64,000 nt of DNA from the human T2T-CHM13v2.0 reference genome, Homo sapiens. Under the pieces are notes generated by a model, which was not told the origin of the DNA, ran no database searches, and saw only the letters and a list, made by a program, of their open reading frames with translations. The DNA lies in assembly GCF_009914755.1 (NCBI RefSeq), contig NC_060947.1, one strand, 5' to 3'. The translations under genes and the position numbers were made by a program. Position 1 is the first letter of the stretch, and the number at the start of each line of letters is the position of its first letter. Shown piece by piece: positions 35,791 through 64,000 of this stretch.

Positions 35791-38700
35791 GAGGATCCAG
35801 GATGGCTGATTGTAAACAGCTGTGGTACGTGGCCCTCAGGGAAAGGAATAAAAGGAGTGAGTGAATTTAGCACCTTCAACTGATATATCCGAGTTCTTGC
35901 ATTGGGACTGACTAGGCAAACAGCTCGACCCATGGAGAGCAAAGAGAAGCAGGGTGGGGTGATGGTCCACCCAGGAGCAGCATAGAGCCAAGGGAACCCT
36001 CAACCCCAGCCAAGGGAAGTGGTGAGTAACTGAGCGATCCCACCCGAGAAACCACACTTCTCCCATGGATCTTTGCAACCCACAGATCAGGAGATCCCCT
36101 TGTGAGCCCACACAACCAGTGCCTTGGGTCCAATACATGGAGCTGTGCAGAGTCTTGCCAAAATGGCCAGTCGGGCACACAGAGAAACCCAAAAGTTTTG
36201 CATACACCAGCCCCAGGATCCATGACAATGTGGGAGATCTATCCATGCATGTTCCCGGGAAGGGGTCTAGATCTAGGGAGCCAAGTGACATTGTTCTTCG
36301 GTCACCTCATGAGTTGAGACTCACTGGCTTGGAATTCCAGCCAGTCGGTGGCAGCAGGCTGGAATCTGCCTGAGTTGGGACCAGGTTCCTGGGGGGAAGG
36401 GCAGTCGCCATCTCTGCAGTTCAGTAGACTCAGTCGTTTCAGCCCACCTGCTTTGAAGAATACAGGAAGTCTAGACAAAGAGGTGTCCCCCCAGCACAGC
36501 ACAGCTGCCTTGCCAGATTGTGGCTAGACTGCTTCTTTAAACGGGACCCTAATCCATCCCTCCCCAGTGGGCGAGACCTCCCTGCAGGGGCTTCAGCCAC
36601 TCTAGCAAGGGTTCTAGAGACAGAACTCTGAGCTCTAGTGAAGAGGAGCAGCCACAACTCTGTGGTTCAGTAGACTCAGCCATTTCAGTCTGCCAGCTTT
36701 GGAAAATACACACGGTCTGGATGAGGAACGGTCCCACCCAATGCAATGCATCTGCTCTACCAAAGGGCAGCCAGACTGCTTCTTTGGAGAGGTTCCTGAT
36801 TCTGTTTCTCCTGGCTGGGTAAGACCTACCAGCAGGGGTCTCCAGCACATTCTACAGGAGAGTTCAGGCCAGGAACAGGTCAGTTATCCTCTAGGTTTGA
36901 GCTGCCAGAAGAAGAAGCAGGCTGCTATCTTTGCTGTTATCTTTGCCTTCACTGGTGATAGCAAGCTGTTATGTTTGCATTCACTGGTGATACCTCTGGG
37001 TATGAGAAACACTGAAGCAAGTAGGGTCTGAAGCAGACCTCAAGCAAACCACAGCAGCCTTATGGAAGAGGGGCCTGACTGCTAAAAGAAAACCAAACAA
37101 ATAGAAAACAACAACTGCAACAACATCAACAAAAAAGACCTCACAAAAACCTCATTCAAAGGTCAGCAACCTCAAGGATCAAAGGTAGAGAAGCCTACAA
37201 ATATGAGAATCAATGCAAAAAAGCTGAAAGTGCAAAAAGCCAGAGGGCCTCTTCTCCTCCAAATGACTGCAACACCTCTCTAGCAAGGGCACAGAACTGG
37301 GCTCAGGCTGAGATAGCTGAATTGAAAGAAGTAAGCTTCAGAAAGTGGGTAATAATAAATTTTGCTGAGCTAAAGGAGCATGTTGTAATCCAGTGCAAAG
37401 AAGCTAAGAATCATAATAAAACAATGCCAGAATGGATAGTCAGAATAGCCAATATAGAGAGGAACATAACTGACCCGGTGGAGCTGAAAAACACATCACG
37501 AGAACTTGACAATGCAATCACAAGTATTATTAGCAGAACAGACCAAGTGGAGATAAGAATCTTAGAGCTTGAAGACTATCTTTCTGAAATAAGGCAGGCA
37601 AACAAAGAATACAGTAAAAAGAATAAAAAGGAATGAACAAAACCTCCGAGAATTATGGGATTATGTAAAGAGACTGAACCTACAACTGATTGGAGTACCT
37701 AAAACAGATGAGGAGAATGGAACTAAGTTGAAAAACATACTTTAGGATTTCATCCTGGAGAAATTCCCCAACCTAGCAAGACAGGCCAACATTCAAATTC
37801 AGGAAATGCAGAGAACACCACTAAGATACTCCACGAGAAAATCAGCTGCAAGACTCATAATAATCAGATTCTCCAAGGTCGAAATGTAAGTAAAAATGTT
37901 AAGCCAGAGAGAAAGGCCAGGTCACCTAAAAAGGGAAGCCCATCAGACTAACAGAGGATCTCTCAGTGGAAACCCTACAAGTCAGAAGAAATTGGGGGCC
38001 AATATTTAACATTCTTAAAGAAAAGAATTTTCAACCCAGAATTTGACATCCTGCCAAACTAAGCCTCATAAGTGAAGGAGAAATGAGATTATTTTCAGAC
38101 AAGCAAATGCTGAGGGAATTTATCACCACCAGGCCTGCCTTGCAAGTGTTCCTGAATGAACCACTAAATATTGAAAGAAAAATATCATTACCAGCCACAA
38201 CATAAACATGCTGAAGTATACAGACCAGTGATACTATGAAGCAACCACATAAACAAGTCTGCAAAATAATTGGCTAACATCATGATGACAGGATTACATT
38301 CACACATAACAATACTAACCTTAAATGTAAACGGGCTAAATGCCCCAATAAAAAGACAAAGGATGGCAAGCTGAATAAAGACACACATAGGCTCAAAATA
38401 AAGGGATGGAGAAAAATTTACCAAGAAAATGGAAAACAGAAAAAAGCAGGGGCCACAATCCTAGTTTCTGAACAAAATTCTTCAAACCAACAAAGGTCAA
38501 AAATGACAAAGAAGGGCATTATATAATGGTAACAAGTTCAATTCAACAAGAAGAGCTAACGATCCTAAATATATATGTACCCAATACAGGAGCACTCAGA
38601 TTAATAAACCAAGTTCTTAGAGACCTAGAAAGAGACTTAGATTTCCACAAAATAATAGTGGGAGACGTCAACATTCCACTGTCAGTAAGAGACAGATCAT

Positions 38701-46754: not shown

Positions 46755-46920
46755 TAATAATAATGGTTAATATAGATTGAGCTTTTACAGTGGTCAGGGA
46801 CTTCGCTAAGTGTTTTCCAGGCATTAGTTTATTACAGCAGATTCTTGGGGTAGGTAATATTATTATTCCCTCATTCTAGATGAGGAAATGGAAGCTTGAA
46901 TAAGTGAAATTACTTGCTGG
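46755..46920 (-). mobile_element. MIR fragment
   Basis: ggtaggtaatattattattccctcattctagatgaggaaatggaagct. Confidence 0.6.
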
Positions 46921-48434
46921 GATGTTTGTAAAAAGATCTTTGCTCTGGAAGTCAGGAGGCTTCTGTGATACTGCTGCTAGTTTACTTTATAATTTTGTAT
47001 AAGTGGCTGTCCCTTTCCTTGCTTCAGTGTCTGAACCTGGAATTTTTTATGCGGTTTTTGAGACTCTAAGTTCATTGGGGTGGAATTTGGAAGGGTGGTC
47101 AAGCATGAATAGGACTAGAAGGGAACACAAATATTTTTTGCTCAAGACATTAGTCTCAGCTGTACCTCCATATGTCTTTTCCCTGCTTTACCCCTTCCTA
47201 CTTGTTCTCTTGCTCATGGCACTCATTCTCTTCCCTAGTTGTAGATTTAAGTTAAGTCCAGTAGGAACTTGACACACTCAGAAAATGGATGAAAACCCAA
47301 GGGGATGCTACTTTTGGGACCATTGTCTGAGCTTTTTTGGGTTACTGCCACCTGTCACAGTTTAAGAGATGTGGAGAGCCACTCATGGCTGTCAGAGGCT
47401 GTGTCAAGGAAACAATATTCTGGTAATGATTTTTATTTACCATGAGGGTTTGGTTTCCTCTTCTGGTGTCTACTTGGACTTCCCTAAGAATTAGTTACCT
47501 TGGTTCTTGGGCTTGGCATCAGCCCACAGAGCATGGAGCCAATCAAGTACCATAAGTCCTGCAGAGATTTAAATTTCCTGGTGGCAGCATTTCTGGCACA
47601 GGCTTATGTTTTCCTATGGTTACTTAAGCCCTTTATTAATGCACTCTGAGTTTCTCTCATGGTTTGGCTCCTCAAGAAGTCAGGCAGTAGCGTTCAAGGT
47701 ACGGGGAAGGTATCAGGTCAAGACAGAAATATTTGGCAGCTTTAGGGATTTTCTGTTTCCACTCTTAAGGTGTGCCCTGAATAAGAGCTGTAGAAGAGTC
47801 ATCTGGGGCTGACTTCTTTGAGGCCCCAAAGAGTCTGGCCTGGGCTTCAAGGAATCTGAGTCCTAGGGTATGCTCAGCCACGAACTCCCTGGGTGACCTT
47901 AGGCAGACAAATTCATTTCCCTGAATCTCTGTTTCCTCAAACATCTTCCATCTCAAACATTCTATAATTCATGAAAGCTGAATAGTACTGGAAATTCTTC
48001 TGCTCAGTATGATAATGATTTGAGCAGAGAAATGAACAGGCTGGGTAAAGTGTGACCTTCCCAGGGTACATAAAATGTTTTTCCAATTAAATGAACATTT
48101 CCTAAATCAGTTCCCAATTAGTGGAGCCAGTGTGTGTTAGCCTTGTGATGGGGCTGCATAAATAGCAATTCAGAATCCAGGAAGAAAGTGGCCAATAGGC
48201 CCACTCTGCTTCTTACCTGTCATAGCAAAAAAGGAGTATGGTGCTCAGAGCCGATCATCACATTTTAGAGAGGACACCATGAGGCTGGAGCTATTTCAGG
48301 GCCGTAGCTAAGGTGATGAGGGAACTCTGAACTGTGTCATATGAGGAAGAGCAGAATGGCCTGGGGATAAGTAACCAAGAGAAGACCTCCAGCAACATCT
48401 TGGCCCCTGGTTTTGGCTCCTATGGGGAAGAGGG

Positions 48435-48877: not shown

Positions 48878-50097
48878 GAGGTGTGTTGTGGGGAAAATGG
48901 AGTGACTTCAAACCTGACCCAATAGCTATACTGCAGGTTCAGTAAATAGATGCTACCAAGGGACAGATTTCACACCAAAGTTCAGGAAAAATTTCAGAGT
49001 AAAATCAGTTTTATGTGGAATTAGATGGTTATAGATCTATAAACCAGAAGAAGATAATCTGAATTTCAGCTGGAGGAAATTTTGGACAAAAGCCTGGATC
49101 TGTTTAAGGGCACGGTCCTTGCACTGTTTGACCTCTAGGGAGAAATACAACTGAATTTGTACAAATGATGGGTGCACCAGGTAGCAGATGAGAGTGTTTT
49201 GACAAAGTGAGCTACTTAACCATGTATGGGAGTGCTAATGCATCTCTCTCTTAAGTATGTGTGAAAGCCCTAATGAAACTTCAATAAATACTCCTGAGAC
49301 TTCATTGGGAGAATAGAGATGGAGGTCTTGAAATATTGCATGGGAGTGAAATAAGAGAGATATTACATTTTCAGGGACCTCTCCAAAATTCCAATAATAT
49401 AAACTTTTATGTTTAACTTATGGGTTTAATTAATCTCCACATCTCAAATATCATTAATTCTGGAATAGAGCAAGGCATGTCACTTTACAGTTAATACAAA
49501 AGTGCCTGTCAAATCACATCAAATAGAAAATCCCAAATTATTGTGTCTCAGTGATATTCAGCATTGTTATGACATACAATAATCCCTCAGGCTACTTAGG
49601 TAGTCCTTTCACCAGAAATACATATCACAAGCATGTCCTTGTGGATCTTATTTAGTGTGGCTGCCATTAGTTTTGTGTCCAACACATAAAACCTATGTGT
49701 GACCTTTCCAGCCTAGATGAATAGAACACTTACTGACATATTGCTGATCTGCTTGACTTCTATGAAAGGCCTTCTTGGGAGACTCTGGAGTTTTTAGTTG
49801 AGCTGTTCTACACATGGGCCTGGGTTTTGCCCATGTTCACCTCAGCTTTCCTCTAAGCAGAACATAATGATCACAGTTTCCACATAGGGAATACCCTGGG
49901 GAAGGAACACATCTTCTAGGACCTGGGACTCAGGATACTGAGACAGACTCTTCACTCAGATGCCTAGAACATAGGAGATGGCAAACTTAACAGGCTGAAA
50001 TAAGGCAGCCTACATTTTTTGGTATAACCTCGTTCTTCATCTGTTAAAACTTCTTTAGGCTGCAGTGACCAAATGTATGGTCATTGACCTGCAGGCC

Positions 50098-50397
50098 TGT
50101 ATTAGACAGTTCAGGCTGCTATAACAAAGCAAAGTGGGTGGTTTATAAGAAACAGACATTTATTTCTCACAGTTCTGGAGGCTAGAAGTCCAAGACCAGT
50201 GTTTTGATGAAGATCCTCTTTCAGGTTGCAGAGTGCTGATTTCTCATTGTATACTCACATGGTTGAAAGAGAGAGAGCATGCCACCCTCATGACCTAAAT
50301 TTACCTCCCAAAGACTCCACCTACAAATGCCGTTAGACTGAGAATTAGATTTTAGCATATAAATGTTGATGGAATATAAAAATTCAGTCCAAAACAA
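50098..50397 (-). mobile_element. MLT1-type MaLR LTR, internally deleted
   Basis: tgtattag...atttatttctcacagttctggaggctagaagtccaagacc...aaaattcagtcc. Confidence 0.75.
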
Positions 50398-51589
50398 AAC
50401 CTCCCCAAAGTATTGCTGCTGAGTCACTTAGAAAACCTTTGTCTGAGTTCACCTTTTTTATTCTTTTTGCAAACTGGGTAGTAATTTGGAATGTTGTAGA
50501 GAGATGCATATTAGTTCTTGCCCAGAGCTAAGGTGTGAGATGGATCGCCCAAACTAAAAGAAGAATTTAGAATAAAAGCAAGATGCTCAAGTACTTCAAG
50601 TTCATGAGCCACATATTTCAGAAGAAAAATTGCAAGGTAATTCCAATACAAAGTGAAATCTACACCACATGTGAATCAGGAGACATGCAGCTAAATTCCA
50701 GAACGAGTTTAATGATGATGGAGGGCAAGGCAAAGATAAGCTGTACCTTGACTGATTAGGCTGATAAATCAGGCTTGTCTTGAATAACAAAGCTAAAGGA
50801 CAGAAAATGAGAAAGAAACATACCTGAAGTGATTTAAAGCCAGGATGTGATATAAAACTATTTACATACACGTATTGCTAAACTGAATAGGAGACACTTC
50901 CCAGGTAGTAAAAGGGTGGAGAAGAAAGTATTTATAAGTCAAATGACCTCTTTGTTTTTGATACAGTAGTTGGTGCCTACTAGGACTTGCTCTGGATATA
51001 AATAAATAAGAAGGCAAAAATTGAGAGGGTTGAGTCAAGCTGATCAGGCTAGAGAAAGATGCAAGAAAAGTTTCACAGATTCTCATTAATACAAGACATG
51101 TAAGATGAAAATAAACAAAGATAATCATTTTTGTGAAAAGACTCAGTAGATAACCTCACAGCTTCTTTTTCCGGCAGAGAATATGGATGTGCTAGGATTG
51201 AAGGCACTTGTCATCACCAATCTAATGGGCTCAACTGGGACAAGTGATTGCATTTTTCTTCTCAAATGGTGGGCTACATAACAAGAATTTAGCATTAGAC
51301 AGGTATGCCAGTGTTGCTGCTAGTGGAAAGTGCACCAATATACATGCTACTCCAGGATAAGGTTGGCAGATATGCTTTGGTCAAACACTGGCATGCACAA
51401 GGGACGAACAAACAAACGTAGACAGCCGTCATATCTTGCCATCAAGAACAAGATTTAAGAAAAGACCTGTGGCCGTGGTCATGTATGATGTAGCTCAATC
51501 ACCCCAGAAACAGAAGATGTTATTAAAAGTATAAGCTGATTCCAGTTTGGCTCTGGCAGAGTGAGGGCAGAAGAGAGGACAACATGTTG

Positions 51590-52270
51590 GAGGGGAAGCC
51601 AGAGAGTTAACCAGAGATTAAATCCTGTTGGCTCTTACCGGACAAGGACTGGGCTTTTACTCTGAGTGAGATCAGAAGCCATTGCTGGGCTGGGACCGGA
51701 GGAGATACACAGCTCACAAAACACATCAATACAGAGAATTCAAACTTCTGAAAAACATATTGGATGAAGAAATGAAGTCCAAATTAAAATGAGGAAGTCC
51801 AGTCAGATGACGAACTTGAACACAAAGAGCAAGCCATTGAGCACTAGTTGGCCACAGATGTGGATTTAAGTTTTCTAGCTGCCAAAATGTAAAGAGGGAA
51901 ACACGATCCTCTGCAGGACTCAACAGTATCCCTGAGATCGAATCTGACAAACTGCTCAGAAGGGGCACCTATGCTTTTCCCTGAGATGAATGTCTCCCAT
52001 CGTCAGATGTCAGATTCTGGATCTATTTTGACAAGAGAGCTCAAAGGATTTCTTCACAGATGGAAATGAGGGGTGAGTAAAACAGTGGCGTGAAGGATCA
52101 CCCTCAAGTCTATAGCATGAACAATTGGAAGGATAAGAGTGGCCTTAACTGTGAGGGGTGGGGCGAGGGGGGACGCTGCAGTGGGAGGAGGTTTCTAGGG
52201 GAAGATGGGAGAGTTCCATTTTTGACTTGTTAATTTGGGTTGACTCTCAGGCAATTTTCTCAGCGAATTA
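51590..52270 (-). mobile_element. L2 fragments (mirrored at about 61500-62180)
   Basis: gggcttttactctgagtgagatcagaagccattg; ggatctattttga...gagttccatttttgacttgttaatttg. Confidence 0.6.
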
Positions 52271-53557
52271 GAAAGGAAGGTCAGAGGCTGAATGTGAGGA
52301 GTCGGGAGGCAGTGTTGGAGGCTTGCAGAGAGAAAATAAGTTGTGAAATAGAAGGGTGAACGGAGACGAAGGCTTGAGAGAAATGAGTAGTTGGAAGATT
52401 TGGACTACAAACCTGGCAGAAAGATGTTTTGGTTTAAATGGATAGGGACCCTGGGTGTTTCCAGATCAGACAATGTTCATTCTTTATGATCCAGCCAGAA
52501 AACTGTGGCTTTTGCTAGCCTTTCCCACCTCTGAACACAGGTTTCCCCTTGCTGGTGAGGGTGGCGTGGAGAGATCCGAGTGAGGAAATAAGTTGTCAGT
52601 GTTTACGCTTATTTCTTCAGTCATGCTGAAGAGGCGGATAGGCCTAATACATAATAGGATAGAACACAATCCACCCGGACTTCCGCCTTATGCACAACTG
52701 CACTTTCAGTTTTGCTCAGAGAGATAGAGCTCACACAATTAGGTAATTGGGCCCAAATCTGAAAGTGAGAAACAGGCCAGAAAGGACACTCAGAGGATGA
52801 AAAGGGAAACCAGTAAGCCCCACTGTTTTATACACCGTTGTCATCATGGTTTTAACTTCATGCTGAGACATAGAATTCCTTAAACTATCACAGCCCTGGT
52901 CACTTGTGCCAATTCTACAAGGCCTCCAAAACCGCATAGGAGATACTGCACCGTGGGCCCATTCCAAACACTTATTCAGAATTAAAATTCCACTGGCTTT
53001 CCATTGATAGCACTAGAGGTCTGTCTGTGACACGCTGCTCCATTACAGCAAAGCAAAGCCCCATAATGACCTAATCCAGAAGGATAAGATCCCAGGACCC
53101 ATAGAACAAGGAGGCCAGAGGGAAGGCAGGCCACAAAGAAGAAGGAAACCAGACTTCCCCATCCCTCTGGGCTCCTGGGGGGGTCAGTGGAAAAAGGCCT
53201 TTAACCTAAGTGCTCAAGGCCCTAACCTAACAGCTTTTGTTTTTCACGCTGGAGCGCTGGCACTTCCTGACCCCGCTTAGTCCTTCTATTAGAATTTTGT
53301 ACTCTGATGCTAGTTTTCAGAGTATAGGAGCAACTGCAGGGAATGAAGCAGCAGACCTATCAATATTTTGTGGTGATCTAAGTCTCTGTTAATAAGCCTG
53401 AGACAAGGCAAAACCAGGAAGAAGCCTTGACCCTTATCAAGGTCATCAAAGCCATACAGGACCCTTCCTAATGTCTTCAACTGTCATTTTTGAAAGAAGC
53501 CGAGTCTGACCACCAAGTATAAATGGGTATAACATCCACCGCATTTCTTTGTCATAT

Positions 53558-54076
53558 TGTTACAGGAAAGGGGTCTTGATCCAGACCCCAAGAGAGGGTT
53601 CTTGGATCTCGCGCAAGAAATAATTCAGGGCGAGTTCACAGTGCAAAGCAAAAGCAAGTTTATTGAGAAAGCACAGTGGTGAAAGGGCAGCTACTCCATA
53701 GACAGAGTAGGACGTTCCCAAAAGTAAGAGGAGGAATGCGTCCACCCTAGGTACAATGCTTGTTATATGAGGAGATGTGCTCTGCTACAAGGGTTTGTGA
53801 TAGAGGATTAATTTTCTTAATTACTATGTTTTGCAAGAATCAGTGTTGTTATCTTTAAGGCAAAATTAGGAATGCCTTTCTTCTCCAGATATCGGAATAT
53901 CTGGACACTCCCAAGTCTGGGTCTGTTTAGTAAACGTTATTAATTTGTTCCCTTAACCGTAAACATCTAGAGGCTGGGAATACCTAACTTTCTGGGAATG
54001 CAGCCCAGCAAGCCTCAGCTTCATTTTCCTAGCCCTCACTCGGAATGGAGTCGCTCTGGTTCAAACGCCTCTGACA
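53558..54076 (-). mobile_element. MER41-family (ERV1) solo LTR, left-arm copy
   Basis: Reverse complement of 59698-60216; TSD ATAT. Confidence 0.85.
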
Positions 54077-54084
54077 ATATCACC

Positions 54085-54235
54085 CCGTTTTATTTTCTAT
54101 CACTTACCACTATCTGAAATTAAGTAGATAATTTGTTTACTCTCTGTCCCCACCCACTAGAATGAGAACGCGGCCCTTGCATCCTTACGTGTGTCTGGCA
54201 TATAAGGGGTGCTCAATGATTATTTGTTTCATGGA
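54085..54235 (+). mobile_element. L2 3' end (mirrored at about 59540-59690)
   Basis: cacttaccactatctgaaat...cactagaatg...gtctggcatataaggggtgctcaatgattatttgtt. Confidence 0.6.
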
Positions 54236-54339
54236 GGAACAGATTTATGGATGGCTGGGTGGATGACGATCTTAGAAGGGGTTCCAGGGCTAGCTGGCTT
54301 TCTGTTTCTCCCACTCAAGCACCCAAGCCCTGACCCACA

Positions 54340-55100
54340 AAGTAAAGGAACAGGCGAAACTTCTCGCCAAATAGCTTCAAGGCAGAAACTACGCAGCTGG
54401 CTTGGGAATTCCGTACAACGCGAACGCGCATGCACAGGCAGGACTGAGCGTGTCCATCTTCGCATTACTCCCGGAGATGACTCTCGGAAACGGTCCGAGG
54501 ACTAACGTCTTTCTCTTCCTCGCCCTCATTCCTCCCAGTAACGTCCGCTACAAAAGAAACCGTGCACAAAATAAACTCGGGCGGCGGGTAGAAAGGAGAC
54601 AGCCGAATTCCCTACACCCATGATCAACACGCCCACACCTCCCATCAGGCACGGCGCTCCCGCCTCCCCGAAGAGGCGGTGGAAAGTGGTGGTGGGGGGG
54701 GTGCTGGGGGAGGGCTGGCGGGGGGAGGGCCGGGGGAAGGAGCGGGGCGGGAACGTCCTTTTGCTACTGCTATGGCTTCCGGGGCAGCACTTCGGCAGAC
54801 CGCCCGCCTCCCAGTTGCAAATCGACTTCCGGGGCACCCCCACCGGCTGCCCGGTGGGTTCTCTGCTCGAACTTCTGGCGCTTTTCCCTTCCCGTTTATC
54901 TTGTTCAGGTCCCTCAGTGGACTGCTCCAGATCTAAAGAGCAGAAATTGGGCCGCAAAGAGAACGTCCTCCCAGACTTTCTCCGTCGCGGTGAAATTATG
55001 CCCGTTTGGTGGCAGTATGTATTCACAGATGCGTGCAGCTCTGCTCTTACCCCGCCCTTCGCGTTTAGAAAAAAAGCGCCGTTCCTCAGAGTCAAAACAA
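54340..55100. promoter_or_regulatory. CpG island / promoter-like element, left-arm copy
   Basis: GC- and CpG-rich against an AT-rich background. Contains ACTTCCGG (ETS), CGCGCATGCACA (NRF1-like), TCTCGCCAAA (E2F-like), GC boxes and G-runs. Confidence 0.8.
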
Positions 55101-55295
55101 AGTTTCTTTCCGCTGTAGAGGCACAGCTTTTAGGGTGGCCTACTAACTCCCGCTTTTTCTTTTCTGAAATCTCTGTGCCAATCTGATGGACAGAAGAGCG
55201 ACAAAAAATATTTTTAACGTGAGATTCTTTGTTGACTAGCCTGCTTGTAAACTTTCTGACATATGCCTTTTTTTTTTTTTTTTTTTCCATAGGGC

Positions 55296-55495
55296 TGTGA
55301 ACCCCTGATATCTGAGAGGTGTCTCAGTCAATTTAGAAAGTTTATTTTGCCAACGTTAAGGACCCGCCCATGACAGCCTCAGGAGGTCCTGACGACATGT
55401 GCCCAAGGTGGTCAGGGCACAGCCTGCTTCCATACATTTTAGTGAGACATGAAACATCAATCATTTTATGTAAGATGTAAAGTGGTTCGGTCGGG
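55296..55495 (-). mobile_element. MER4-type LTR 3' portion, left-arm copy
   Basis: tgtgaacccctgatatctgagaggtgtctcagtcaatttagaaagtttattttgcc...cacagcctg. Confidence 0.8.
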
Positions 55496-56493
55496 GAAGG
55501 ATCTTGTGCTGTGAGAGGATTTGACCTTGGCGTGTGTAATGGTAGATGAGAGCTACAAAATTACAAGTGGCTGAAGACAGTTTACAGGAAATGGTCATAG
55601 CTGCCCCCCTCTTTTTTCCCCTCTTAGGAAGTTATTGTTTAGGATCCGAATTCTAATTTGGAGATGCATTCTACAGTGTCTTCTCCATTGCTTTTCCTCC
55701 CCAAATTAATCTTGTTGTTTTGTGTGTGCATCTGCGTGAAGAGCTGTACTGTTGTTTTCATAGATACATGAGAGACTGTTTCCTGACCTCCAAAGGGAAA
55801 GGGCATTTTGCTCTTCCCAGCAGAAAGGCACCCCTGGGTGACTTGGAGCCCAGTGGGAGTGTCTGGGGGTGTTGACCCCCGTGACAACCAGCAGCCCTAC
55901 AGGGAACCTACAACAAAATAGTTTTAAAAAGCTCATCCAGGAAATGCCTATTAGAGCTGATCACTTTGCTTTGACCCTCCCATAGGTGCTAGACCTCCAG
56001 AGAGAGAAAATGAGACACATAAGGTGGAAATTACTCTGTGGTGACACACTGTGGAGTCCTGCCCACAACCCGGATACTTGGACCCACTCCACTGAAACCT
56101 TAGGCCACAGCTAAGTTCCTTCCTTCAAAAAATAAATCTAAGAAAGAGGAAAAACAGGAATGACCTCCTTTCAGGCACTCTGTTGGTTTTATGGCGCCTC
56201 TTCTTGCGAATGTTTGTGTAAAATTGACATACTGTGGTCCTTTTCTGCACAATTACGGCAAGGAAAATTCAGATCGCAAAGGTCCACCTGTGAGTATAAA
56301 GTTCCTAAGTTCTCTGTGTATGGCTCTGCTTTCTTTTTTGCCTGCATTAAGTCTGCTGTTACATTTCTACTGAGATAAAATCCACCATTTGCATCCATCC
56401 ATTTCATTTTGTTATTGTTTTTGTAAACCAATGAGTTTGTATTAATATCTCATGACTAGAGTTCTGAAGTAAAAGCTATAGGATTTTTGGTTG

Positions 56494-57184
56494 TGTGGCA
56501 GGGCAGGTCTCACAGCTGAACAGGGAGGCCTCCTTAACAACTGTTTCAGCACTGACTGGTTAAATATTAAAAGCTGAAAGAGCCAGTGCCCTTATACAAA
56601 GGCTGGGATTTAACAAAAGCCCACCAAGAGTTTTGCCTATGTCCTCCTGGGCCTTGAAGCATGACAAGATAAAGGAATTCTTAACAGGACCCCTTTGGGA
56701 TTAAACAAGTTTTTATTGGAGGTCTGAAGAAACTCCCCAGACCTCCACAAACAAGTTTTACTGGTGGTCTAAAGGAACTTCTAAAACCTCTATGGATTTA
56801 CAGCAGACAAGATAAGGGTAATCACCCCAAGCACCTGGACCCATCTAGATTAAGTAAATTTACTGAGGCTCCAGAGGAAGGTCTTCAAAACTGAGAACTT
56901 AGTTGTAGATTAAAAGAAGTTAATAACTTATGTCTTTAGATGAATGCAAAGTTATATGTAAACATATAGCTTAAAAGGTATATAAGCTTTGGAAAACTTT
57001 GTAATTTTGAGTTGGTCTGACGACAGTCTCTCCACAGGGAGAAGGCCTCGAAAATATTGGCAGACCAAGTAAAAATTACAAAGTTTTCTGAGCTTATATA
57101 AACTCTCTTCTTTCCCAGTTCATCTGCATCTCATTACCGGGTAGCAGGAATAAGTAGGCTGACCCTCAGTTTGGACCGGGAACA
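56494..57184 (+). mobile_element. MER39-like solo LTR
   Basis: tgtggcagggcaggtctcac...gagccagtgcccttatacaaaggctggg...ccctcagtttggaccgggaaca; imperfect TSD GTTG/GCTG. Confidence 0.8.
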
Positions 57185-57436
57185 GCTGTGTAAGTGTGTA
57201 TGTGTGTGTTTATATGTATGTACACGTATTTTGTTGTGTTTTGGGCCACAAGGTACCACACTGGCTTAACAAGTACTCATAAATTAATTAGCCCAAATGC
57301 TTTTCATCTTTATATGACTTAAGTAAAATCTGTCATATGCTTGCTTAAAAATTATTGGTAAACTAATAACAGAAATTTCTTAAAAATTGCCAGCATACAT
57401 TTTTGCATTTATTAATCAAGCAATTTCATACTTATC

Positions 57437-57823
57437 AAAATGTGGCACATATACACCATGGAATACCATGCAACCATAAAAAATGATGAGTTCATGTCCT
57501 TTGTAGGGACATGGATGAAATTGGAAATCATCATTCTCAGTAAACTATCGCAAGGACAAAAAACCAAACACCGCATGTTCTCACTCATAGATGGGAATTG
57601 AACAATGAGAACACATGGACACAGGAAGGGGAACATCACACTCTGGGGACTGTTGTGGGGTGGGGGAAGGGGGGAGGGGGGAGGGACAGCATTAGGAGAT
57701 ATACCTAATGCTAAATGACGAGTTAATGGGTGCAGCACACCAGCATGGCACATGTATACACATATGTAACTAACCTGCACATTGTGCACATGTACCCTGA
57801 ACCTTTAATAATTAAAAAAAAAA
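57437..57823 (+). mobile_element. 5'-truncated L1PA2/3 3' end
   Basis: aaaatgtggcacatatacaccatggaata...ctaatgctaaatgacgagttaatgggtgcagcacacc followed by an A tail. Confidence 0.92.
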
Positions 57824-58195
57824 TTTGGCATGCGGGTTACAAAACTATAAATCCGGCAAAAACAGAATTTTTGCTTGTATAATTTTTGATAAAAAAATTA
57901 ATATTGGATTAATGAAAATCGCTAAATATCCAATTATTCAGTAAAATAACCATATATTTAATCTTAAGGCTTTTACTTAGGTAAACACCTGAAATTCACA
58001 GGCTATAAAATGGTTGAAAAGGAAATAAAATGACTATCGCAGTTTCATAAATAATCTAGGTAAACTATTAGAAAAAGTAGGTAAATGTAATGAGATAAAT
58101 GCTTTTAGACAAAACTTGTTATAATTTAGATTCTGAAGTTATAGTAAGATAAGTTATGACATTAACTGGGTATTTTTCAATTTAAAAAATATGGA

Positions 58196-58479
58196 AAGCT
58201 AATCAGAAACTCGAATGCAACCAGTGTGTCTTTATCTACCTATGACCTTCCTAGTCACCTCACCAATTCAAGTTGTCCCACCTTTAGAGACCGAACCAGT
58301 ATACATCTTACATATTGATGTTTCATGTCTCCCTAAAATGTATGGAAGCAGGCTGTGCCCTGACCACCTTGGGCACGTGTCGTCAGGACCTCCTCAGGCT
58401 GTCATGGGCGCGTCCTTAACGTTGGCAAAATAAACTTTCTAAATTGACTGAGACACCTCTCAGATATCAGGGGTTCACA
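58196..58479 (+). mobile_element. MER4-type LTR 3' portion, right copy
   Basis: Ends ggcaaAATAAActttctaaattgactgagacacctctcagatatcaggggttcaca. Confidence 0.8.
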
Positions 58480-58673
58480 GCCCTATGGAAAAAAAAAAAA
58501 AAAAAAGGCATATGTCAGAAAGTTTACAAGCAGGCTAGTCAACAAAGAATCTCACGTTAAAAATATTTTTTGTCGCTCTTCTGTCCATCAGATTGGCACA
58601 GAGATTTCAGAAAAGAAAAAGCGGGAGTTAGTAGGCCACCCTAAAAGCTGTGCCTCTACAGCGGAAAGAAACT

Positions 58674-59434
58674 TTGTTTTGACTCTGAGGAACGGCGCTT
58701 TTTTTCTAAACGCGAAGGGCGGGGTAAGAGCAGAGCTGCACGCATCTGTGAATACATACTGCCACCAAACGGGCATAATTTCACCGCGACGGAGAAAATC
58801 TGGGAGGACGTTCTCTTTGCGGCCCAATTTCTGCTCTTTAGATCTGGAGCAGTCCACTGAGGGACCTGAACAAGATAAACGGGAAGGGAAAAGCGCCAGA
58901 AGTTCGAGCAGAGAACCCACCGGGCAGCCGGTGGGGGTGCCCCGGAAGTCGATTTGCAACTGGGAGGCGGGCGGTCTGCCGAAGTGCTGCCCCGGAAGCC
59001 ATAGCAGTAGCAGAAGGACGTTCCCGCCCCGCTCCTTCCCCCGGCCCTCCCCCCGCCAGCCCTCCCCCAGCACCCCCCCCACCACCACTTTCCACCGCCT
59101 CTTCGGGGAGGCGGGAGCGCCGTGCCTGATGGGAGGTGTGGGCGTGTTGATCATGGGTGTAGGGAATTCGGCTGTCTCCTTTCTACCCGCCGCCCGAGTT
59201 TATTTTGTGCACGGTTTCTTTTGTAGCGGACGTTACTGGGAGGAATGAGGGCGAGGAAGAGAAAGACGTTAGTCCTCGGACCGTTTCCGAGAGTCATCTC
59301 CGGGAGTAATGCGAAGATGGACACGCTCAGTCCTGCCTGTGCATGCGCGTTCGCGTTGTACGGAATTCCCAAGCCAGCTGCGTAGTTTCTGCCTTGAAGC
59401 TATTTGGCGAGAAGTTTCGCCTGTTCCTTTACTT
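58674..59434. promoter_or_regulatory. CpG island / promoter-like element, right-arm copy
   Basis: Mirror of 54340-55100: CCGGAAGT at about 58942, CCGGAAGC at about 58992, TGTGCATGCGCG at about 59338 and TTTGGCGAGA at about 59403. Confidence 0.8.
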
Positions 59435-59697
59435 TGTGGGTCAGGGCTTGGGTGCTTGAGTGGGAGAAACAGAAAGCCAGCTAGCCCTGGAACCCCTTCT
59501 AAGATCGTCATCCACCCAGCCATCCATAAATCTGTTCCTCCATGAAACAAATAATCATTGAGCACCCCTTATATGCCAGACACACGTAAGGATGCAAGGG
59601 CCGCGTTCTCATTCTAGTGGGTGGGGACAGAGAGTAAACAAATTATCTACTTAATTTCAGATAGTGGTAAGTGATAGAAAATAAAACGGGGTGATAT

Positions 59698-60216
59698 TGT
59701 CAGAGGCGTTTGAACCAGAGCGACTCCATTCCGAGTGAGGGCTAGGAAAATGAAGCTGAGGCTTGCTGGGCTGCATTCCCAGAAAGTTAGGTATTCCCAG
59801 CCTCTAGATGTTTACGGTTAAGGGAACAAATTAATAACGTTTACTAAACAGACCCAGACTTGGGAGTGTCCAGATATTCCGATATCTGGAGAAGAAAGGC
59901 ATTCCTAATTTTGCCTTAAAGATAACAACACTGATTCTTGCAAAACATAGTAATTAAGAAAATTAATCCTCTATCACAAACCCTTGTAGCAGAGCACATC
60001 TCCTCATATAACAAGCATTGTACCTAGGGTGGACGCATTCCTCCTCTTACTTTTGGGAACGTCCTACTCTGTCTATGGAGTAGCTGCCCTTTCACCACTG
60101 TGCTTTCTCAATAAACTTGCTTTTGCTTTGCACTGTGAACTCGCCCTGAATTATTTCTTGCGCGAGATCCAAGAACCCTCTCTTGGGGTCTGGATCAAGA
60201 CCCCTTTCCTGTAACA
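59698..60216 (+). mobile_element. MER41-family (MER41C/D-like) solo LTR, right-arm copy
   Basis: tgtcagaggcgtttgaaccagagcgactcc...gagatccaagaaccctctcttggggtctggatcaagacccctttcctgtaaca; TSD ATAT at 59694-59697 and 60217-60220. Confidence 0.85.
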
Positions 60217-62683
60217 ATATGACAAAGAAATGCGGTGGATGTTATACCCATTTATATTTGGTGGTCAGACTCGGCTTCTTTCAAAAATGACAGTTGAAGA
60301 CATTAGGAAGGGTCCTGTATGGCTTTGATGACCTTGATAAGGGTCAAGGCTTCTTCCTGGTTTTGCCTTGTCTCAGGCTTATTAACAGAGACTTAGATCA
60401 CCACAAAATATTGATAGGTCTGCTGCTTCATTCCCTGCAGTTGCTCCTATACTCTGAAAACTAGCATCAGAGTACAAAATTCTAATAGAAGGACTAAGCG
60501 GGGTCAGGAAGTGCCAGCGCTCCAGCGTGAAAAACAAAAGCTGTTAGGTTAGGGCCTTGAGCACTTAGGTTAAAGGCCTTTTTCCACTGACCCCCCCAGG
60601 AGCCCAGAGGGATGGGGAAGTCTGGTTTCCTTCTTCTTTGTGGCCTGCCTTCCCTCTGGCCTCCTTGTTCTATGGGTCCTGGGATCTTATCCTTCTGGAT
60701 TAGGTCATTATGGGGCTTTGCTTTGCTGTAATGGAGCAGCGTGTCACAGACAGACCTCTAGTGCTATCAATGGAAAGCCAGTGGAATTTTAATTCTGAAT
60801 AAGTGTTTGGAATGGGCCCACGGTGCAGTATCTCCTATGCGGTTTTGGAGGCCTTGTAGAATTGGCACAAGTGACCAGGGCTGTGATAGTTTAAGGAATT
60901 CTATGTCTCAGCATGAAGTTAAAACCATGATGACAACGGTGTATAAAACAGTGGGGCTTACTGGTTTCCCTTTTCATCCTCTGAGTGTCCTTTCTGGCCT
61001 GTTTCTCACTTTCAGATTTGGGCCCAATTACCTAATTGTGTGAGCTCTATCTCTCTGAGCAAAACTGAAAGTGCAGTTGTGCATAAGGCGGAAGTCCGGG
61101 TGGATTGTGTTCTATCCTATTATGTATTAGGCCTATCCGCCTCTTCAGCATGACTGAAGAAATAAGCGTAAACACTGACAACTTATTTCCTCACTCGGAT
61201 CTCTCCACGCCACCCTCACCAGCAAGGGGAAACCTGTGTTCAGAGGTGGGAAAGGCTAGCAAAAGCCACAGTTTTCTGGCTGGATCATAAAGAATGAACA
61301 TTGTCTGATCTGGAAACACCCAGGGTCCCTATCCATTTAAACCAAAACATCTTTCTGCCAGGTTTGTAGTCCAAATCTTCCAACTACTCATTTCTCTCAA
61401 GCCTTCGTCTCCGTTCACCCTTCTATTTCACAACTTATTTTCTCTCTGCAAGCCTCCAACACTGCCTCCCGACTCCTCACATTCAGCCTCTGACCTTCCT
61501 TTCTAATTCGCTGAGAAAATTGCCTGAGAGTCAACCCAAATTAACAAGTCAAAAATGGAACTCTCCCATCTTCCCCTAGAAACCTCCTCCCACTGCAGCG
61601 TCCCCCCTCGCCCCACCCCTCACAGTTAAGGCCACTCTTATCCTTCCAATTGTTCATGCTATAGACTTGAGGGTGATCCTTCACGCCACTGTTTTACTCA
61701 CCCCTCATTTCCATCTGTGAAGAAATCCTTTGAGCTCTCTTGTCAAAATAGATCCAGAATCTGACATCTGACGATGGGAGACATTCATCTCAGGGAAAAG
61801 CATAGGTGCCCCTTCTGAGCAGTTTGTCAGATTCGATCTCAGGGATACTGTTGAGTCCTGCAGAGGATCGTGTTTCCCTCTTTACATTTTGGCAGCTAGA
61901 AAACTTAAATCCACATCTGTGGCCAACTAGTGCTCAATGGCTTGCTCTTTGTGTTCAAGTTCGTCATCTGACTGGACTTCCTCATTTTAATTTGGACTTC
62001 ATTTCTTCATCCAATATGTTTTTCAGAAGTTTGAATTCTCTGTATTGATGTGTTTTGTGAGCTGTGTATCTCCTCCGGTCCCAGCCCAGCAATGGCTTCT
62101 GATCTCACTCAGAGTAAAAGCCCAGTCCTTGTCCGGTAAGAGCCAACAGGATTTAATCTCTGGTTAACTCTCTGGCTTCCCCTCCAACATGTTGTCCTCT
62201 CTTCTGCCCTCACTCTGCCAGAGCCAAACTGGAATCAGCTTATACTTTTAATAACATCTTCTGTTTCTGGGGTGATTGAGCTACATCATACATGACCACG
62301 GCCACAGGTCTTTTCTTAAATCTTGTTCTTGATGGCAAGATATGACGGCTGTCTACGTTTGTTTGTTCGTCCCTTGTGCATGCCAGTGTTTGACCAAAGC
62401 ATATCTGCCAACCTTATCCTGGAGTAGCATGTATATTGGTGCACTTTCCACTAGCAGCAACACTGGCATACCTGTCTAATGCTAAATTCTTGTTATGTAG
62501 CCCACCATTTGAGAAGAAAAATGCAATCACTTGTCCCAGTTGAGCCCATTAGATTGGTGATGACAAGTGCCTTTCATCTTAGCATATTTATATTGCCTGC
62601 TGGAAAAAAAAATGTGTTAAACTACCTACCGGTAGCCATTCATCTCTGCTTTTCTCTTTGCATCTGATTCCAACACACTTTCA

Positions 62684-63419
62684 TGTTACATGTAGTTAGA
62701 CACACATGAGAGGGGCAGGAGAGTCCTTTTCCCCAACACCCACCGGGAATGTCACGTGATCGGGTGATGGTTCAACAATTATCACATTGCCTGTCTAAAA
62801 ATGGTACTTTGGCACCTGGAGTCAGGGAGAGATAATCTCCTGCTCATCTACAGCTGTTAACATTAACGTGGTTAACTGAATGCCAGGTAGAAACAAAAAG
62901 AGCTTCCAATAAAATCAAGTATTGTGGGACTGAGCTCAAGCATTGTGGGAGTGAGCTCAAGCATGTGAATTAAGACACAAAATGACGGAGTATGACCTTC
63001 CTATTGACACTTCACCAGAAAAGTGAAGAAAGCCTCAGGCGGGAATCCATACAACTTCCTAAACCCACTGTGCATGCTCACCTCCCAAGGGTAAGGAGGG
63101 TACTGTGCATGGGGCAGCACAGTACCCATGGGAAGAATCATGGGAAATGAGCCAGTCTATGAAGTTCCAGGATCAAGGTTAAACACCACACTTGAGCTTC
63201 ATATGCCCGCTTGGGCCTCTTCCAAGTGTACTTTCTTTTATGTTCTAAACGCTTTTTAAATAAATTTCCACTCCTGCTCTGAAACTTGCCTCGGTCTCTT
63301 TTTCTGCCTTCTGCCTCTCAGTGGAATTCTTTCTTCTGAGAAGGCAAGAATTAAGGTTGCTGCAGACCCGTGTCTGGATTCGCTGCTGGTGGTAGCTCAG
63401 ATACCTTACCCCGGTCACA
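62684..63419 (+). mobile_element. MER50-like solo LTR
   Basis: TG...CA ends with TSD TTCA; catgagaggggcaggagag; gaggcaagaatt-like 3' region followed by gttgctgcagacccg. Confidence 0.75.
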
Positions 63420-63593
63420 TTCACAGTCCCTTTCTCCCGACTAACCCGTTTTGACTGTTTACTCCCTATTTGTAATATCTCCAGCAACCTAATCTGGGTT
63501 TTAGAAATGGAGTATTAAATATACCAATGGCTATATTTTCAGGGGCATTGTGACATTTCTAAGACATCACTATCTTGAAAAATCCAGCCTATT

Positions 63594-64000
63594 GACACCA
63601 CACGTCTACAACTATCTGATCTTCGACAAACCTGACAAAAACAAGCTATGAGGAAACAATTCCCTATTTAATAAATAAAAATAAAAAGGAATAAAAAGCG
63701 TTTAGAACAAAAATCTAGGAAAACTGGCTAGCCATATGCAGAAAACAGAAACTGGACCCCTTCCTTATACCTTACACAAAAATTAACTCAAGATGGATTA
63801 AACCCTTAAAGGTAAAAGTTAAAACCATAAAAACCCTAGAAACATACCTAGGCAATACCATTCAGGACACAGGCAAGGGCAAATACTTTATGACTAAAAT
63901 GCCAAAAGCAATTGCAACAAAAGCCAAAATTGACAAATGGAATATAATTAAACTAAACAACTTCTGCACAGCAAAAGAAACTGCCATCAGAGTGCACAGG
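63594..64000 (+). mobile_element. L1PA ORF2 fragment running off the window end
   Basis: tacaactatctgatcttcgacaaacctgacaaaaacaagc; aactggacccc; aggcaataccattcaggaca. Confidence 0.9.

What the first reader, a model, noticed from the sequence alone, without database searches (positions are those of the whole stretch)
54340..59434. Twin orphan CpG islands in mirror orientation with no recognisable gene
The only CpG-rich non-repeat DNA in the window sits inside the arms (54340-55100 and 58674-59434) and carries housekeeping-promoter motifs (ETS/GABP, NRF1-like, E2F-like, GC boxes). CpG retention implies germline hypomethylation. X palindromes usually preserve testis genes, but here the preserved cargo appears purely regulatory or non-coding. 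Because the copies are mirrored, any directional promoter fires both ways. Outward firing gives two lncRNAs with identical 5' ends, while inward firing gives convergent transcription across the ERV spacer. Read-through of both arms would fold into a roughly 4-kb dsRNA hairpin, a potential ADAR or endo-siRNA/piRNA substrate. Multi-mapping would hide this in standard pipelines.
Basis: inference. Interest (0 to 1): 0.75.

Follow-up and report, generated by a model that had tools for sequence, protein, structure and literature searches.

The report
Twin CpG islands inside inversion HsInv0403
Two near-identical, mirror-image CpG islands really do sit in the arms of a small X-chromosome palindrome upstream of PBDC1, but that palindrome is an already published, gene-free, recurrently flipping human inversion, and the islands look like one ordinary promoter-type island that was duplicated.

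Summary
Arms 51166-55492 and 58289-62608 are 99.42% identical over 4327 bp. Each carries one island of 761 bp, GC 0.58, CpG o/e 0.89 and 57 CpGs, against about 5.4 CpGs expected at background. The island has only these two copies in the genome. The palindrome is not new. It is inversion HsInv0403 (Aguado 2014; Giner-Delgado 2019), with 4.3-kb repeats at 99.4% identity. It is polymorphic in human, chimpanzee and gorilla and is listed as gene-free. The passages and tables I read do not mention the islands. Motifs fit a TATA-less promoter: two ETS cores, one NRF1 half-site, four GC boxes and a G4 tract. No E2F site matched my two patterns. No ORF has a Pfam hit (0 of 24), and there is no Rfam or tRNA hit. 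My best reading is one old, germline-unmethylated orphan island, duplicated and homogenised by arm-to-arm conversion, acting as a promoter or enhancer. The 4-kb hairpin idea fails geometrically: an island-initiated RNA could form a stem of only about 0.7 kb. An untested lead is that the Xi superloop anchor 'x75' and the mouse Pbdc1 escape domain map here. Expression and methylation could not be checked.

The parts
51166..55492 (.). Left arm of the palindrome; BP1 inverted repeat of HsInv0403.
   Evidence: blastn 99.42% over 4327 bp to the right arm. The core 51201-55267 has 3 differences; the inner edge 55268-55492 has 6 substitutions and 2 indels. Size and identity match the published 4,331/4,323 bp and 99.4%.
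58289..62608 (.). Right arm of the palindrome; BP2 inverted repeat of HsInv0403.
55493..58288 (.). Spacer, the segment that flips in HsInv0403. This assembly carries orientation O1.
   Evidence: GC 0.39, CpG o/e 0.21. The iMLPA probe halves place C at 56985-57017 (+), D at L003:1172-1197 (+) and A at 46895-46928 (+). The only HindIII site in the palindrome is at 56984.
54340..55100 (.). Left CpG island (54251-55150 by the sliding scan).
   Evidence: 761 bp, GC 0.58, o/e 0.89, 57 CpGs. Only two copies in the genome.
58674..59434 (.). Right CpG island (58651-59500 by the sliding scan); mirror copy, the one nearer PBDC1.
   Evidence: Overlaps the RefSeq 'enhancer' interval 58319-59137 (hub table).
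54776..54832 (-). Two ETS cores (CCGGAAG on the minus strand) 50 bp apart. Mirror copies at 58942-58998 (+).
   Evidence: 2 found vs 0.26 expected; mirror copies checked.
54426..54433 (.). NRF1-type half-site GCGCATGC. Mirror copy at 59341-59348.
   Evidence: 1 found vs 0.02 expected.
54694..54751 (+). G-quadruplex-type G-run tract with GC boxes. Mirror copy at 59023-59080 on the minus strand.
   Evidence: Regex hits; TRF rows at 54688-54742.
53555..54080 (+). Interspersed repeat of about 520 bp, solo-LTR-like, ending 170 bp from the island. Probably the MER41C that the inversion papers list in the repeats. Mirror copy at 59694-60219.
   Evidence: 87-90% identity to the scored copies genome-wide. 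The TE list is in Aguado footnote 8 and Giner-Delgado SD1. Which listed TE sits here is my inference.
54104..54112 (-). Best 5' splice-site match near the island (GTG|GTAAGT), pointing outward. Mirror copy at 59662-59670 (+).
   Evidence: Score 5.6 with a donor matrix recalled from memory. It is the only site >=5 within 2 kb in either direction; the window background is 0.195 per kb per strand. Weak evidence.
55461..55995 (.). RefSeq 'enhancer' interval at the left end of the spacer.
   Evidence: Hub table. I infer that it is half of one GRCh38 element of about 1.35 kb that the inversion splits, the other half being 58319-59137.
58319..59137 (.). RefSeq 'enhancer' interval covering the inner right arm and the inner 464 bp of the right island.
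   Evidence: Hub table. Its mirror image (54637-55456) abuts 55461, by arithmetic on the coordinates.
56494..57185 (.). Interspersed repeat in the spacer that reads like a solo LTR (starts TGTG, ends ACA).
   Evidence: 79-89% identity to many loci; sequence. The family was not determined.
57437..57825 (+). L1 3' end with poly(A) in the spacer.
   Evidence: 92-95% identity to many loci; sequence. The L1 label is from recall.

Best explanation
The two islands are copies of one ancestral orphan CpG island: a TATA-less, ETS/NRF1/SP1-type promoter-like element.

Shown: the island lies in the 4.3-kb inverted repeats of the recurrent inversion HsInv0403, about 23 and 27 kb upstream of PBDC1.

Inferred: the island predates the duplication and has been kept unmethylated in the germline. 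Arm-to-arm gene conversion now keeps the two copies almost identical.

Inferred: each copy works as a promoter and/or promoter-like enhancer. Because the copies are mirrored, outward firing would give two RNAs with identical 5' parts, one heading towards PBDC1 and one away. Inward firing would give convergent transcription over the spacer.

Shown or near-shown: the inversion does not move or turn the islands. It flips only the spacer, which carries part of a RefSeq-annotated enhancer, between the PBDC1-distal and PBDC1-proximal island.
For: - The island meets both common CpG-island definitions against CpG-depleted flanks.
- It is unique apart from its mirror copy (2 of 2 genome matches). It resembles nothing else in 94 kb, including the PBDC1 promoter (best E 0.27). 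So it is not a young copy of another promoter or of a transposon.
- The rest of the arm has o/e 0.27, so arm-wide conversion did not create the CpG richness.
- Motif content is above shuffle expectation, and a G4 tract is present.
- Core arm identity is 3 differences in 4067 bp, against 6 substitutions and 2 indels in the 225-bp inner edge. This is the pattern expected from ongoing conversion of an older duplication.
- The repeats exist and flip in human, chimpanzee and gorilla.
- A RefSeq 'enhancer' interval covers the inner half of the right island (hub table).
- There is no coding or structured-RNA alternative: 0 of 24 ORFs of >=70 aa hit Pfam; 0 Rfam; 0 tRNA.
Against: - I have no direct evidence of transcription, open chromatin or methylation state.
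- RefSeq annotates no transcript. I could not look at GENCODE, FANTOM or CHESS.
- The motif evidence is modest: 2 ETS cores and 1 half-site.
- The inversion papers' eQTL tables (files 3 and 4) contain no row for HsInv0403, and their selection tests read 'None'. So no functional effect of spacer orientation has been reported.
- The direction of firing is undetermined. The only hint is one strong outward 5' splice site, which has about a 13% chance of occurring by background.
- I do not know which assay underlies the RefSeq enhancer.
Confidence: 0.55

Rival explanations
1. The islands are a relic or germline-only element. They would be the promoter of a gene or lncRNA that has died, or one active only in germ cells or the early embryo. 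CpGs survive because the DNA is unmethylated in the germline, but there is no present somatic function.
For: No annotated transcript (hub table). No ORF family hit (0 of 24). The inversion has no reported eQTL or selection signal. CpG retention reports only on the germline state (inference).
Against: A RefSeq enhancer interval overlaps the right island (hub table). The ETS/NRF1/SP1 content is typical of broadly active promoters (that typing is recalled knowledge).
Confidence: 0.2
2. The islands have an architectural role on the inactive X. The twin islands, or the palindrome, would be the sequence basis of the 'x75' superloop anchor. They may also be the human positional counterpart of the mouse lncRNA promoter 5530601H04Rik in the Pbdc1 escape domain.
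For: One paper places X75 at 75.35 M, alongside DXZ4 at 115 M and FIRRE at 130.85 M (passage). Those values match hg19 by my recall. Using the published hg18 breakpoints plus a recalled offset of about 83 kb, the palindrome lies at about 75.361-75.373 Mb in hg19. X75 is called a repetitive, CTCF-binding locus and a lncRNA locus (passages). In mouse, a lncRNA lies head-to-head 9.7 kb upstream of Pbdc1 and both escape X inactivation (passages).
Against: The islands have no good CTCF motif: the best score is 9.0 of a possible 29.5 bits. No tandem repeat lies in or near the palindrome. The bin size and exact x75 coordinates are unknown to me, because Darrow 2016 and Rao 2014 are not held. Other candidates lie within or just outside a 50-kb bin: the PBDC1 promoter island at 82151-82900, and CTCF-like sites at 80135 (13.8 bits) and 92048 (16.8 bits). 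Human CXorf26/PBDC1 scored 0/9 for escape in the table of PMC4143967.
Confidence: 0.12
3. The CpG richness is a by-product of GC-biased gene conversion between the arms, and the islands are not regulatory elements.
For: Arm GC outside the island (0.45) is somewhat above the flanks (0.40-0.41) and the spacer (0.39).
Against: CpG o/e outside the island within the same arm is 0.27, no higher than the right flank (0.31). The enrichment is confined to about 0.8 kb with sharp edges. TpG and CpA are not in excess inside the island (0.82 and 0.93) but are in excess outside it.
Confidence: 0.03
4. One reading: read-through across both arms yields a long hairpin that feeds ADAR, endo-siRNA or piRNA pathways.
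For: The arms are 99.4% complementary. Convergent inward firing of both islands would give intermolecular duplex over the spacer and inner arms (inference).
Against: An island-initiated RNA contains only about 0.7 kb of arm before the spacer, so the intramolecular stem would be about 0.7 kb, not 4 kb (coordinates). There are six AATAAA/ATTAAA hexamers on the + strand between 56131 and 58024. No expression data are available.
Confidence: 0.05

Closest known systems
HsInv0403, a recurrent NAHR inversion on Xq13.3 (Aguado et al. 2014, PMC3961182; Giner-Delgado et al. 2019, PMC6748972)
   Same: It is the same locus. The hg18 breakpoints are 75278106-75282269 and 75285318-75289479. The repeats are 4,331/4,323 bp at 99.4%, described as unique sequence plus L2, L4, MamGyp, MER41C and MER4A. 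My measurement is 4327 bp at 99.42%. Three of the paper's iMLPA probe halves map exactly where the design predicts.
   Different: The papers list 'no' genes in the repeats or the inverted region. In the Aguado main text the words CpG, promoter and regulatory occur 0 times. The twin-island content is therefore not described in what I read: passages, Table 1/2 rows, and supplement files 1-12 and 14 by term search.
int22h repeats of F8 in Xq28: a CpG island with the F8A/F8B promoter inside inverted repeats that mediate recurrent inversion (recalled; the review PMC3211038 was seen only in a search listing)
   Same: An X-linked inverted repeat whose copies each carry a CpG island, and whose recombination flips the intervening DNA.
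   Different: The int22h islands drive annotated genes, and the inversion there is pathogenic. Here no gene is annotated, the inverted segment is 3 kb, and the inversion is a common polymorphism.
Orphan CpG islands (Illingworth et al. 2010; recalled, not read here)
   Same: A CpG island away from any annotated TSS, with promoter-type sequence.
   Different: Membership in the functional sense (unmethylated, H3K4me3, initiation) was not testable here. What is unusual is the mirrored duplicate kept identical by conversion.
Large X-chromosome palindromes with testis genes (Warburton et al. 2004; Jackson et al. 2021; recalled, not read here)
   Same: Arms more than 99% identical with a short spacer, arm-to-arm conversion and spacer inversion.
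   Different: The arms are 4.3 kb, below the 8-kb cut-off those catalogues use by my recall. There is no protein-coding cargo.
Mouse Pbdc1 / 5530601H04Rik escape domain (Reinius et al. 2010, PMC3091755; Fang et al. 2025, PMC11874400; passages read)
   Same: A non-coding promoter lies some kilobases upstream of Pbdc1, head-to-head with it, in a region that forms an x75-Dxz4 contact on the inactive X in mouse.
   Different: Sequence homology was not tested, because no mouse DNA is available here. Reinius reports that cross-species BLAST found a human homologue only for the coding gene. Human PBDC1 scored as subject to inactivation (0/9).

Membership tests
CpG island (Gardiner-Garden & Frommer; Takai & Jones criteria, recalled) | Length >=200 bp (or >=500), GC >=50% (or >=55%), CpG o/e >=0.6 (or >=0.65). 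| tested here: met
   761 bp, GC 0.58, o/e 0.89 for each copy.
Orphan CpG island | No annotated TSS at the island. | tested here: met
   The RefSeq table from the hub shows no gene in the window. GENCODE and FANTOM were not available to me.
Orphan CpG island | Unmethylated, with H3K4me3 and transcription initiation in some tissue. | not testable with these tools
   No epigenomic or expression data are reachable.
HsInv0403 inverted repeats | Position, repeat length and identity, spacer size and diagnostic HindIII/probe layout as published. | tested here: met
Large X palindromes (arms >8 kb, testis-expressed genes) | Arm length above 8 kb. | tested here: not met
   The arms are 4.3 kb.
Large X palindromes (arms >8 kb, testis-expressed genes) | Protein-coding gene in the arms. 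| tested here: not met
   0 of 24 ORFs of >=70 aa have a Pfam match. Aguado Table 2 lists no genes.
Housekeeping-type CpG-island promoter | ETS, NRF1 and SP1 sites, and no TATA box. | tested here: met
   2 ETS, 1 NRF1 half-site, 4 GGGCGG, 0 TATAWAW. These are consensus matches only.
Housekeeping-type CpG-island promoter | A mapped transcription start site. | not testable with these tools
   No CAGE or RNA data.
Xi superloop anchor (DXZ4/FIRRE/ICCE type) | Tandem array of CTCF motifs. | tested here: not met
   The best CTCF score in the islands is 9.0 of 29.5 bits (matrix recalled). There is no tandem array in 50000-64000 beyond short G-runs.
Endogenous retrovirus (the 'ERV spacer') | gag/pol/env coding remnants between LTRs. 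| tested here: not met
   None of the 24 ORFs of >=70 aa scanned (left flank edge, left arm, spacer and start of the right arm, 50862-58433) hit Pfam. Only LTR-like and L1 fragments were seen.

The most novel reading that the evidence does not exclude
The twin islands are the human, ape-duplicated counterpart of the escape-domain lncRNA promoter that sits upstream of mouse Pbdc1. Together with the palindrome they would form the euchromatic 'x75' anchor that loops to DXZ4 on the inactive X. The common HsInv0403 inversion would then flip an enhancer-bearing spacer between the two promoters, giving a natural orientation switch inside a superloop anchor.
Probability: 0.12. Interest if true: 0.65.

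Novelty: new member of a known kind. Interest (0 to 1): 0.35.

Why it matters
The palindrome is already catalogued as a gene-free recurrent inversion. What is added here is that its repeats are not inert: each holds a promoter-type CpG island, and a RefSeq enhancer interval overlaps one of them.

If the islands are active, HsInv0403 is a common human polymorphism (inverted-allele frequency 0.26 in Aguado Table 2) that re-orients an enhancer-bearing spacer between two identical promoters next to PBDC1. Short-read pipelines would miss any signal there because reads multi-map.

If the islands also underlie the x75 contact point of the inactive X, a so-far uncharacterised superloop anchor would become testable with a precise target.

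If they are silent, this is simply one more orphan island duplicated in a small inverted repeat.

Tried and rejected
- The bacterial promoter/terminator scan is not applicable to human DNA and was ignored.
- Rfam at gathering thresholds gave 0 hits over 50000-64000. ARAGORN gave 0. There is no small-RNA explanation.
- Pfam on the 24 stop-to-stop ORFs of >=70 aa in 50862-58433 gave 0 hits. The long open frames in the island are what GC-rich DNA gives by chance.
- The island is not a paralogue of another promoter. Only the two copies exist in the genome. A word-7 blastn against 94 kb including the PBDC1 promoter gave nothing better than E 0.27.
- I first recalled the 520-bp repeat at 53555-54080 as LTR12. 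The inversion papers list MER41C and MER4A in the repeats, so I dropped my label.
- A pair of CTCF-like motifs at 36338 (17.5 bits) and 36826 (16.4 bits), with a 246-bp diverged direct repeat, looked like an x75 candidate. The sequence reads as an old L1 5' end running into ORF1 (recall), so I rate it low.
- The exact x75 coordinates could not be obtained. Darrow 2016 and Rao 2014 are not held, and the Barutcu supplement is unreadable.
- Literature searches that found nothing on the islands:
  - PBDC1 + palindrome: 0 papers.
  - PBDC1 + inverted repeats + inversion: 0 papers.
  - PBDC1 + CpG island + lncRNA + upstream: 6 papers, 4 listed, all on mouse escape or Firre by title.
  - 'palindrome arms' + CpG island + X chromosome: 3 papers, none on this locus by title.
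  - HsInv0403: 3 papers.
- Splice-site and poly(A) counting to find the firing direction gave only a weak outward hint.

Full report
**1. The observation**

The window holds a near-perfect palindrome. The repeat finder reports arms 51163-55285 / 58489-62611 (4123 nt) continuing as 55269-55461 / 58314-58506. blastn joins them as 51166-55492 against 62608-58289: 99.422% over 4327 bp, with 18 mismatches and 2 gaps.

A base-by-base walk places the differences as follows:
- 9 mismatches lie in the outermost 35 bp.
- 6 substitutions plus 2 indels lie in the innermost 225 bp (55268-55492).
- Only 3 differences lie in the 4067-bp core: 53517/60257, 54761/59013 and 54976/58798.

Each arm carries one CpG island. 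That compares with 5.4 CpGs expected at background.

The other three CpG-rich segments in the window fall inside repeats masked in the hub's list. So the islands are the only non-repeat CpG-rich DNA in the window. The next island is the PBDC1 promoter at window-equivalent 82151-82900.

**2. What surrounds the islands**

CpG o/e by segment:

| Segment | CpG o/e |
|---|---|
| Arm outside the island | 0.27 |
| 520-bp repeat next to the island | 0.45 |
| Spacer | 0.21 |
| Left flank | 0.07 |

The CpG richness is therefore local, not a property of the arms.

A genome-wide search with the 851-bp island finds only itself and its mirror copy (2 matches).

A search with the whole arm returns 47 matches (40 of 5486 first-look candidates scored). 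Apart from the two arms, these fall on one interspersed repeat of about 520 bp at 53555-54080 (87-90% identity) and on a piece at 55296-55488.

The spacer search returns 81 matches. Apart from the self-match and one weak hit near the spacer's right end, they fall on two blocks: 56494-57185 (79-89%) and 57437-57825 (92-95%). By eye these are an LTR-like element and an L1 3' end with poly(A). The L1 label is from recall.

None of the 24 ORFs of >=70 aa in 50862-58433 hits Pfam. Rfam gives 0 hits and ARAGORN gives 0. 'No recognisable gene' holds. 'ERV spacer' holds only in the sense of LTR-type debris.

**3. Identity of the palindrome**

A literature search led to Aguado et al. 2014 (PMC3961182; I read passages and table rows). 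Table 1 lists HsInv0403 with these features:
- Breakpoints chrX:75278106-75282269 and 75285318-75289479 (hg18).
- Repeats of 4.3/4.3 kb.
- Validated by inverse PCR.

Table 2 gives an inverted-allele frequency of 0.26, 'no' genes in the repeats or the inverted region, and both orientations in chimpanzee and gorilla.

Footnote 8 says the repeats contain unique sequence plus parts of L2, L4, MER41C, MER4A and MamGyp.

Giner-Delgado et al. 2019 (PMC6748972; I searched supplement files by term and read file 5 part 2) adds:
- Repeats of 4,331/4,323 bp at 99.4%, an inverted segment of 3048 bp, origin 'Recurrent'.
- Orientation O1 in hg18 and O2 in hg19 and hg38.
- O1+O2 in chimpanzee and gorilla, and O1 in orangutan.

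These numbers match my measurements.

The paper's iMLPA probes confirm identity and orientation. The C half maps to 56985-57017 (+) at the only HindIII site of the palindrome. The D half maps to L003:1172-1197 (+), just right of the right arm. The A half maps to 46895-46928 (+). The HindIII fragment 56985-65197 therefore gives the 'O1 DC' junction. This assembly carries O1, opposite to GRCh38.

**4. A consequence for the RefSeq 'enhancer'**

The hub lists an enhancer as 55461-55995,58319-59137. The mirror image of 58319-59137 is 54637-55456, which abuts 55461.

In the O2 orientation of GRCh38 the two pieces would be contiguous (535 + 819 = 1354 bp). I therefore infer a single GRCh38 element that runs from the inner half of one island across the arm edge into the spacer. 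It would have been split when projected onto an O1 assembly. I could not see which assay underlies it.

**5. Promoter features**

Counts inside the island against 300 dinucleotide shuffles:

| Motif | Found | Expected |
|---|---|---|
| CCGGAAG (ETS core) | 2 | 0.26 |
| GCGCATGC (NRF1 half-site) | 1 | 0.02 |
| GGGCGG (GC box) | 4 | 1.16 |
| TATAWAW | 0 | 0.02 |
| TTTSSCGC / TTSGCGC (E2F) | 0 | 0.18 / 0.27 |

The two ETS cores are 50 bp apart in the same orientation. A G-quadruplex-type tract lies at 54694-54751. All motifs are mirrored in the right arm.

This fits a TATA-less CpG-island promoter, but these are consensus matches only.

Direction is unresolved. With a donor-site matrix recalled from memory, the only site scoring >=5 within 2 kb is outward at 54107 (minus strand, GTG|GTAAGT), with its mirror at 59667 (+). 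The window background is 0.195 such sites per kb per strand. The + strand of the spacer has six AATAAA/ATTAAA hexamers.

**6. Mechanism**

I read the islands as one old island that has been duplicated.
- The core of the arms is homogenised (0.07% difference), while the inner edge has drifted (6 substitutions in 225 bp).
- The repeats are shared by human, chimpanzee and gorilla.
- This argues for a duplication older than the human-gorilla split, kept uniform by conversion (inference).
- CpG retention next to decayed flanks argues for germline hypomethylation (inference).

Recombination happens within identical arms, so the inversion leaves both islands where they are. It turns only the spacer. 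In effect the whole palindrome is reflected relative to PBDC1.

An RNA starting at the ETS pair (about 54800) contains only about 0.7 kb of arm before the spacer. Convergent inward firing could still give intermolecular duplex.

**7. A lead I could not close**

One paper gives the inactive-X superloop anchor X75 at 75.35 M, beside DXZ4 at 115 M and FIRRE at 130.85 M (passage). It labels these hg38, but by my recall they are hg19 values.

From the published hg18 breakpoints and a recalled hg18-to-hg19 offset of about 83 kb, the palindrome lies at about 75.361-75.373 Mb in hg19. The HG19 tag-SNP positions listed for the inversion (75355728 and 75391374) agree with that neighbourhood.

Other papers call X75 a repetitive CTCF-binding locus and a lncRNA locus (passages).

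In mouse the syntenic region contacts Dxz4. Pbdc1 with the lncRNA 5530601H04Rik, head-to-head and 9.7 kb apart, forms an escape domain (passages).

Against the link:
- The islands lack a good CTCF motif (best 9.0 of 29.5 bits).
- No tandem array is present.
- Other candidates lie nearby.
- Human CXorf26 scored 0/9 for escape.
- The original x75 description was not available.

**8. Verdict**

The palindrome is already known. Its island content is undescribed in the texts I could read, and it is a new member of a known kind: an orphan, promoter-type CpG island inside an inverted repeat, as at int22h. Function remains inferred.

Supplements I could not read may bear on these claims. They are Giner-Delgado files 13 and 15-18, the Barutcu supplement, and all bioRxiv supplements.

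Noticed in passing
window 55493-58288 with 46892-46928, 56984-57017 and L003:1172-1197: This assembly carries the O1 orientation of HsInv0403, opposite to GRCh37/38 (O2). Annotation projected from GRCh38 across the spacer may therefore be split or misplaced. The two-interval RefSeq enhancer looks like such a case.
   Followed up: yes
window about 39000-64000 and beyond to about 90000: The inactive-X superloop anchor 'x75' (75.35 M; hg19 by my recall) falls in or next to this window, upstream of PBDC1. Its sequence basis is not identified in anything I could read.
   Followed up: partly
window 36338-36356 and 36826-36844 (+), with 36409-36492 / 36655-36738: Two same-strand CTCF-like motifs (17.5 and 16.4 bits) lie 488 bp apart within a diverged 246-bp direct repeat (84 nt, 73% identity). 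The surrounding sequence reads like an old L1 5' end running into ORF1 (recall).
   Followed up: partly
window 52540-52558 (-) and 61216-61234 (+): A weak CTCF-like motif (10.2 bits) occurs in each arm, so the pair points outward in divergent orientation.
   Followed up: no
window 53555-54080 and 59694-60219: A solo-LTR-like repeat of about 520 bp (probably the MER41C listed by the inversion papers) ends 170 bp from each island, oriented towards it. MER41 LTRs are known interferon-responsive enhancers (recalled), so the islands may sit beside an inducible element.
   Followed up: no
window-equivalent 80135 (+) and 92048 (-), in L004 and L005: CTCF-like motifs of 13.8 and 16.8 bits bracket PBDC1 in convergent orientation (promoter island at 82151-82900; gene 82393-87646 per the hub).
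   Followed up: no
window 51166-51200 / 62574-62608: The outer 35 bp of the blastn arm alignment carry 9 mismatches. The true outer boundary of homology is close to 51201/62573, and the alignment edge is fuzzy.
   Followed up: no
whole window: AAGCTT occurs 11 times against 33.9 +/- 6.4 in dinucleotide shuffles. This is probably a general property of human DNA rather than of this locus.
   Followed up: no
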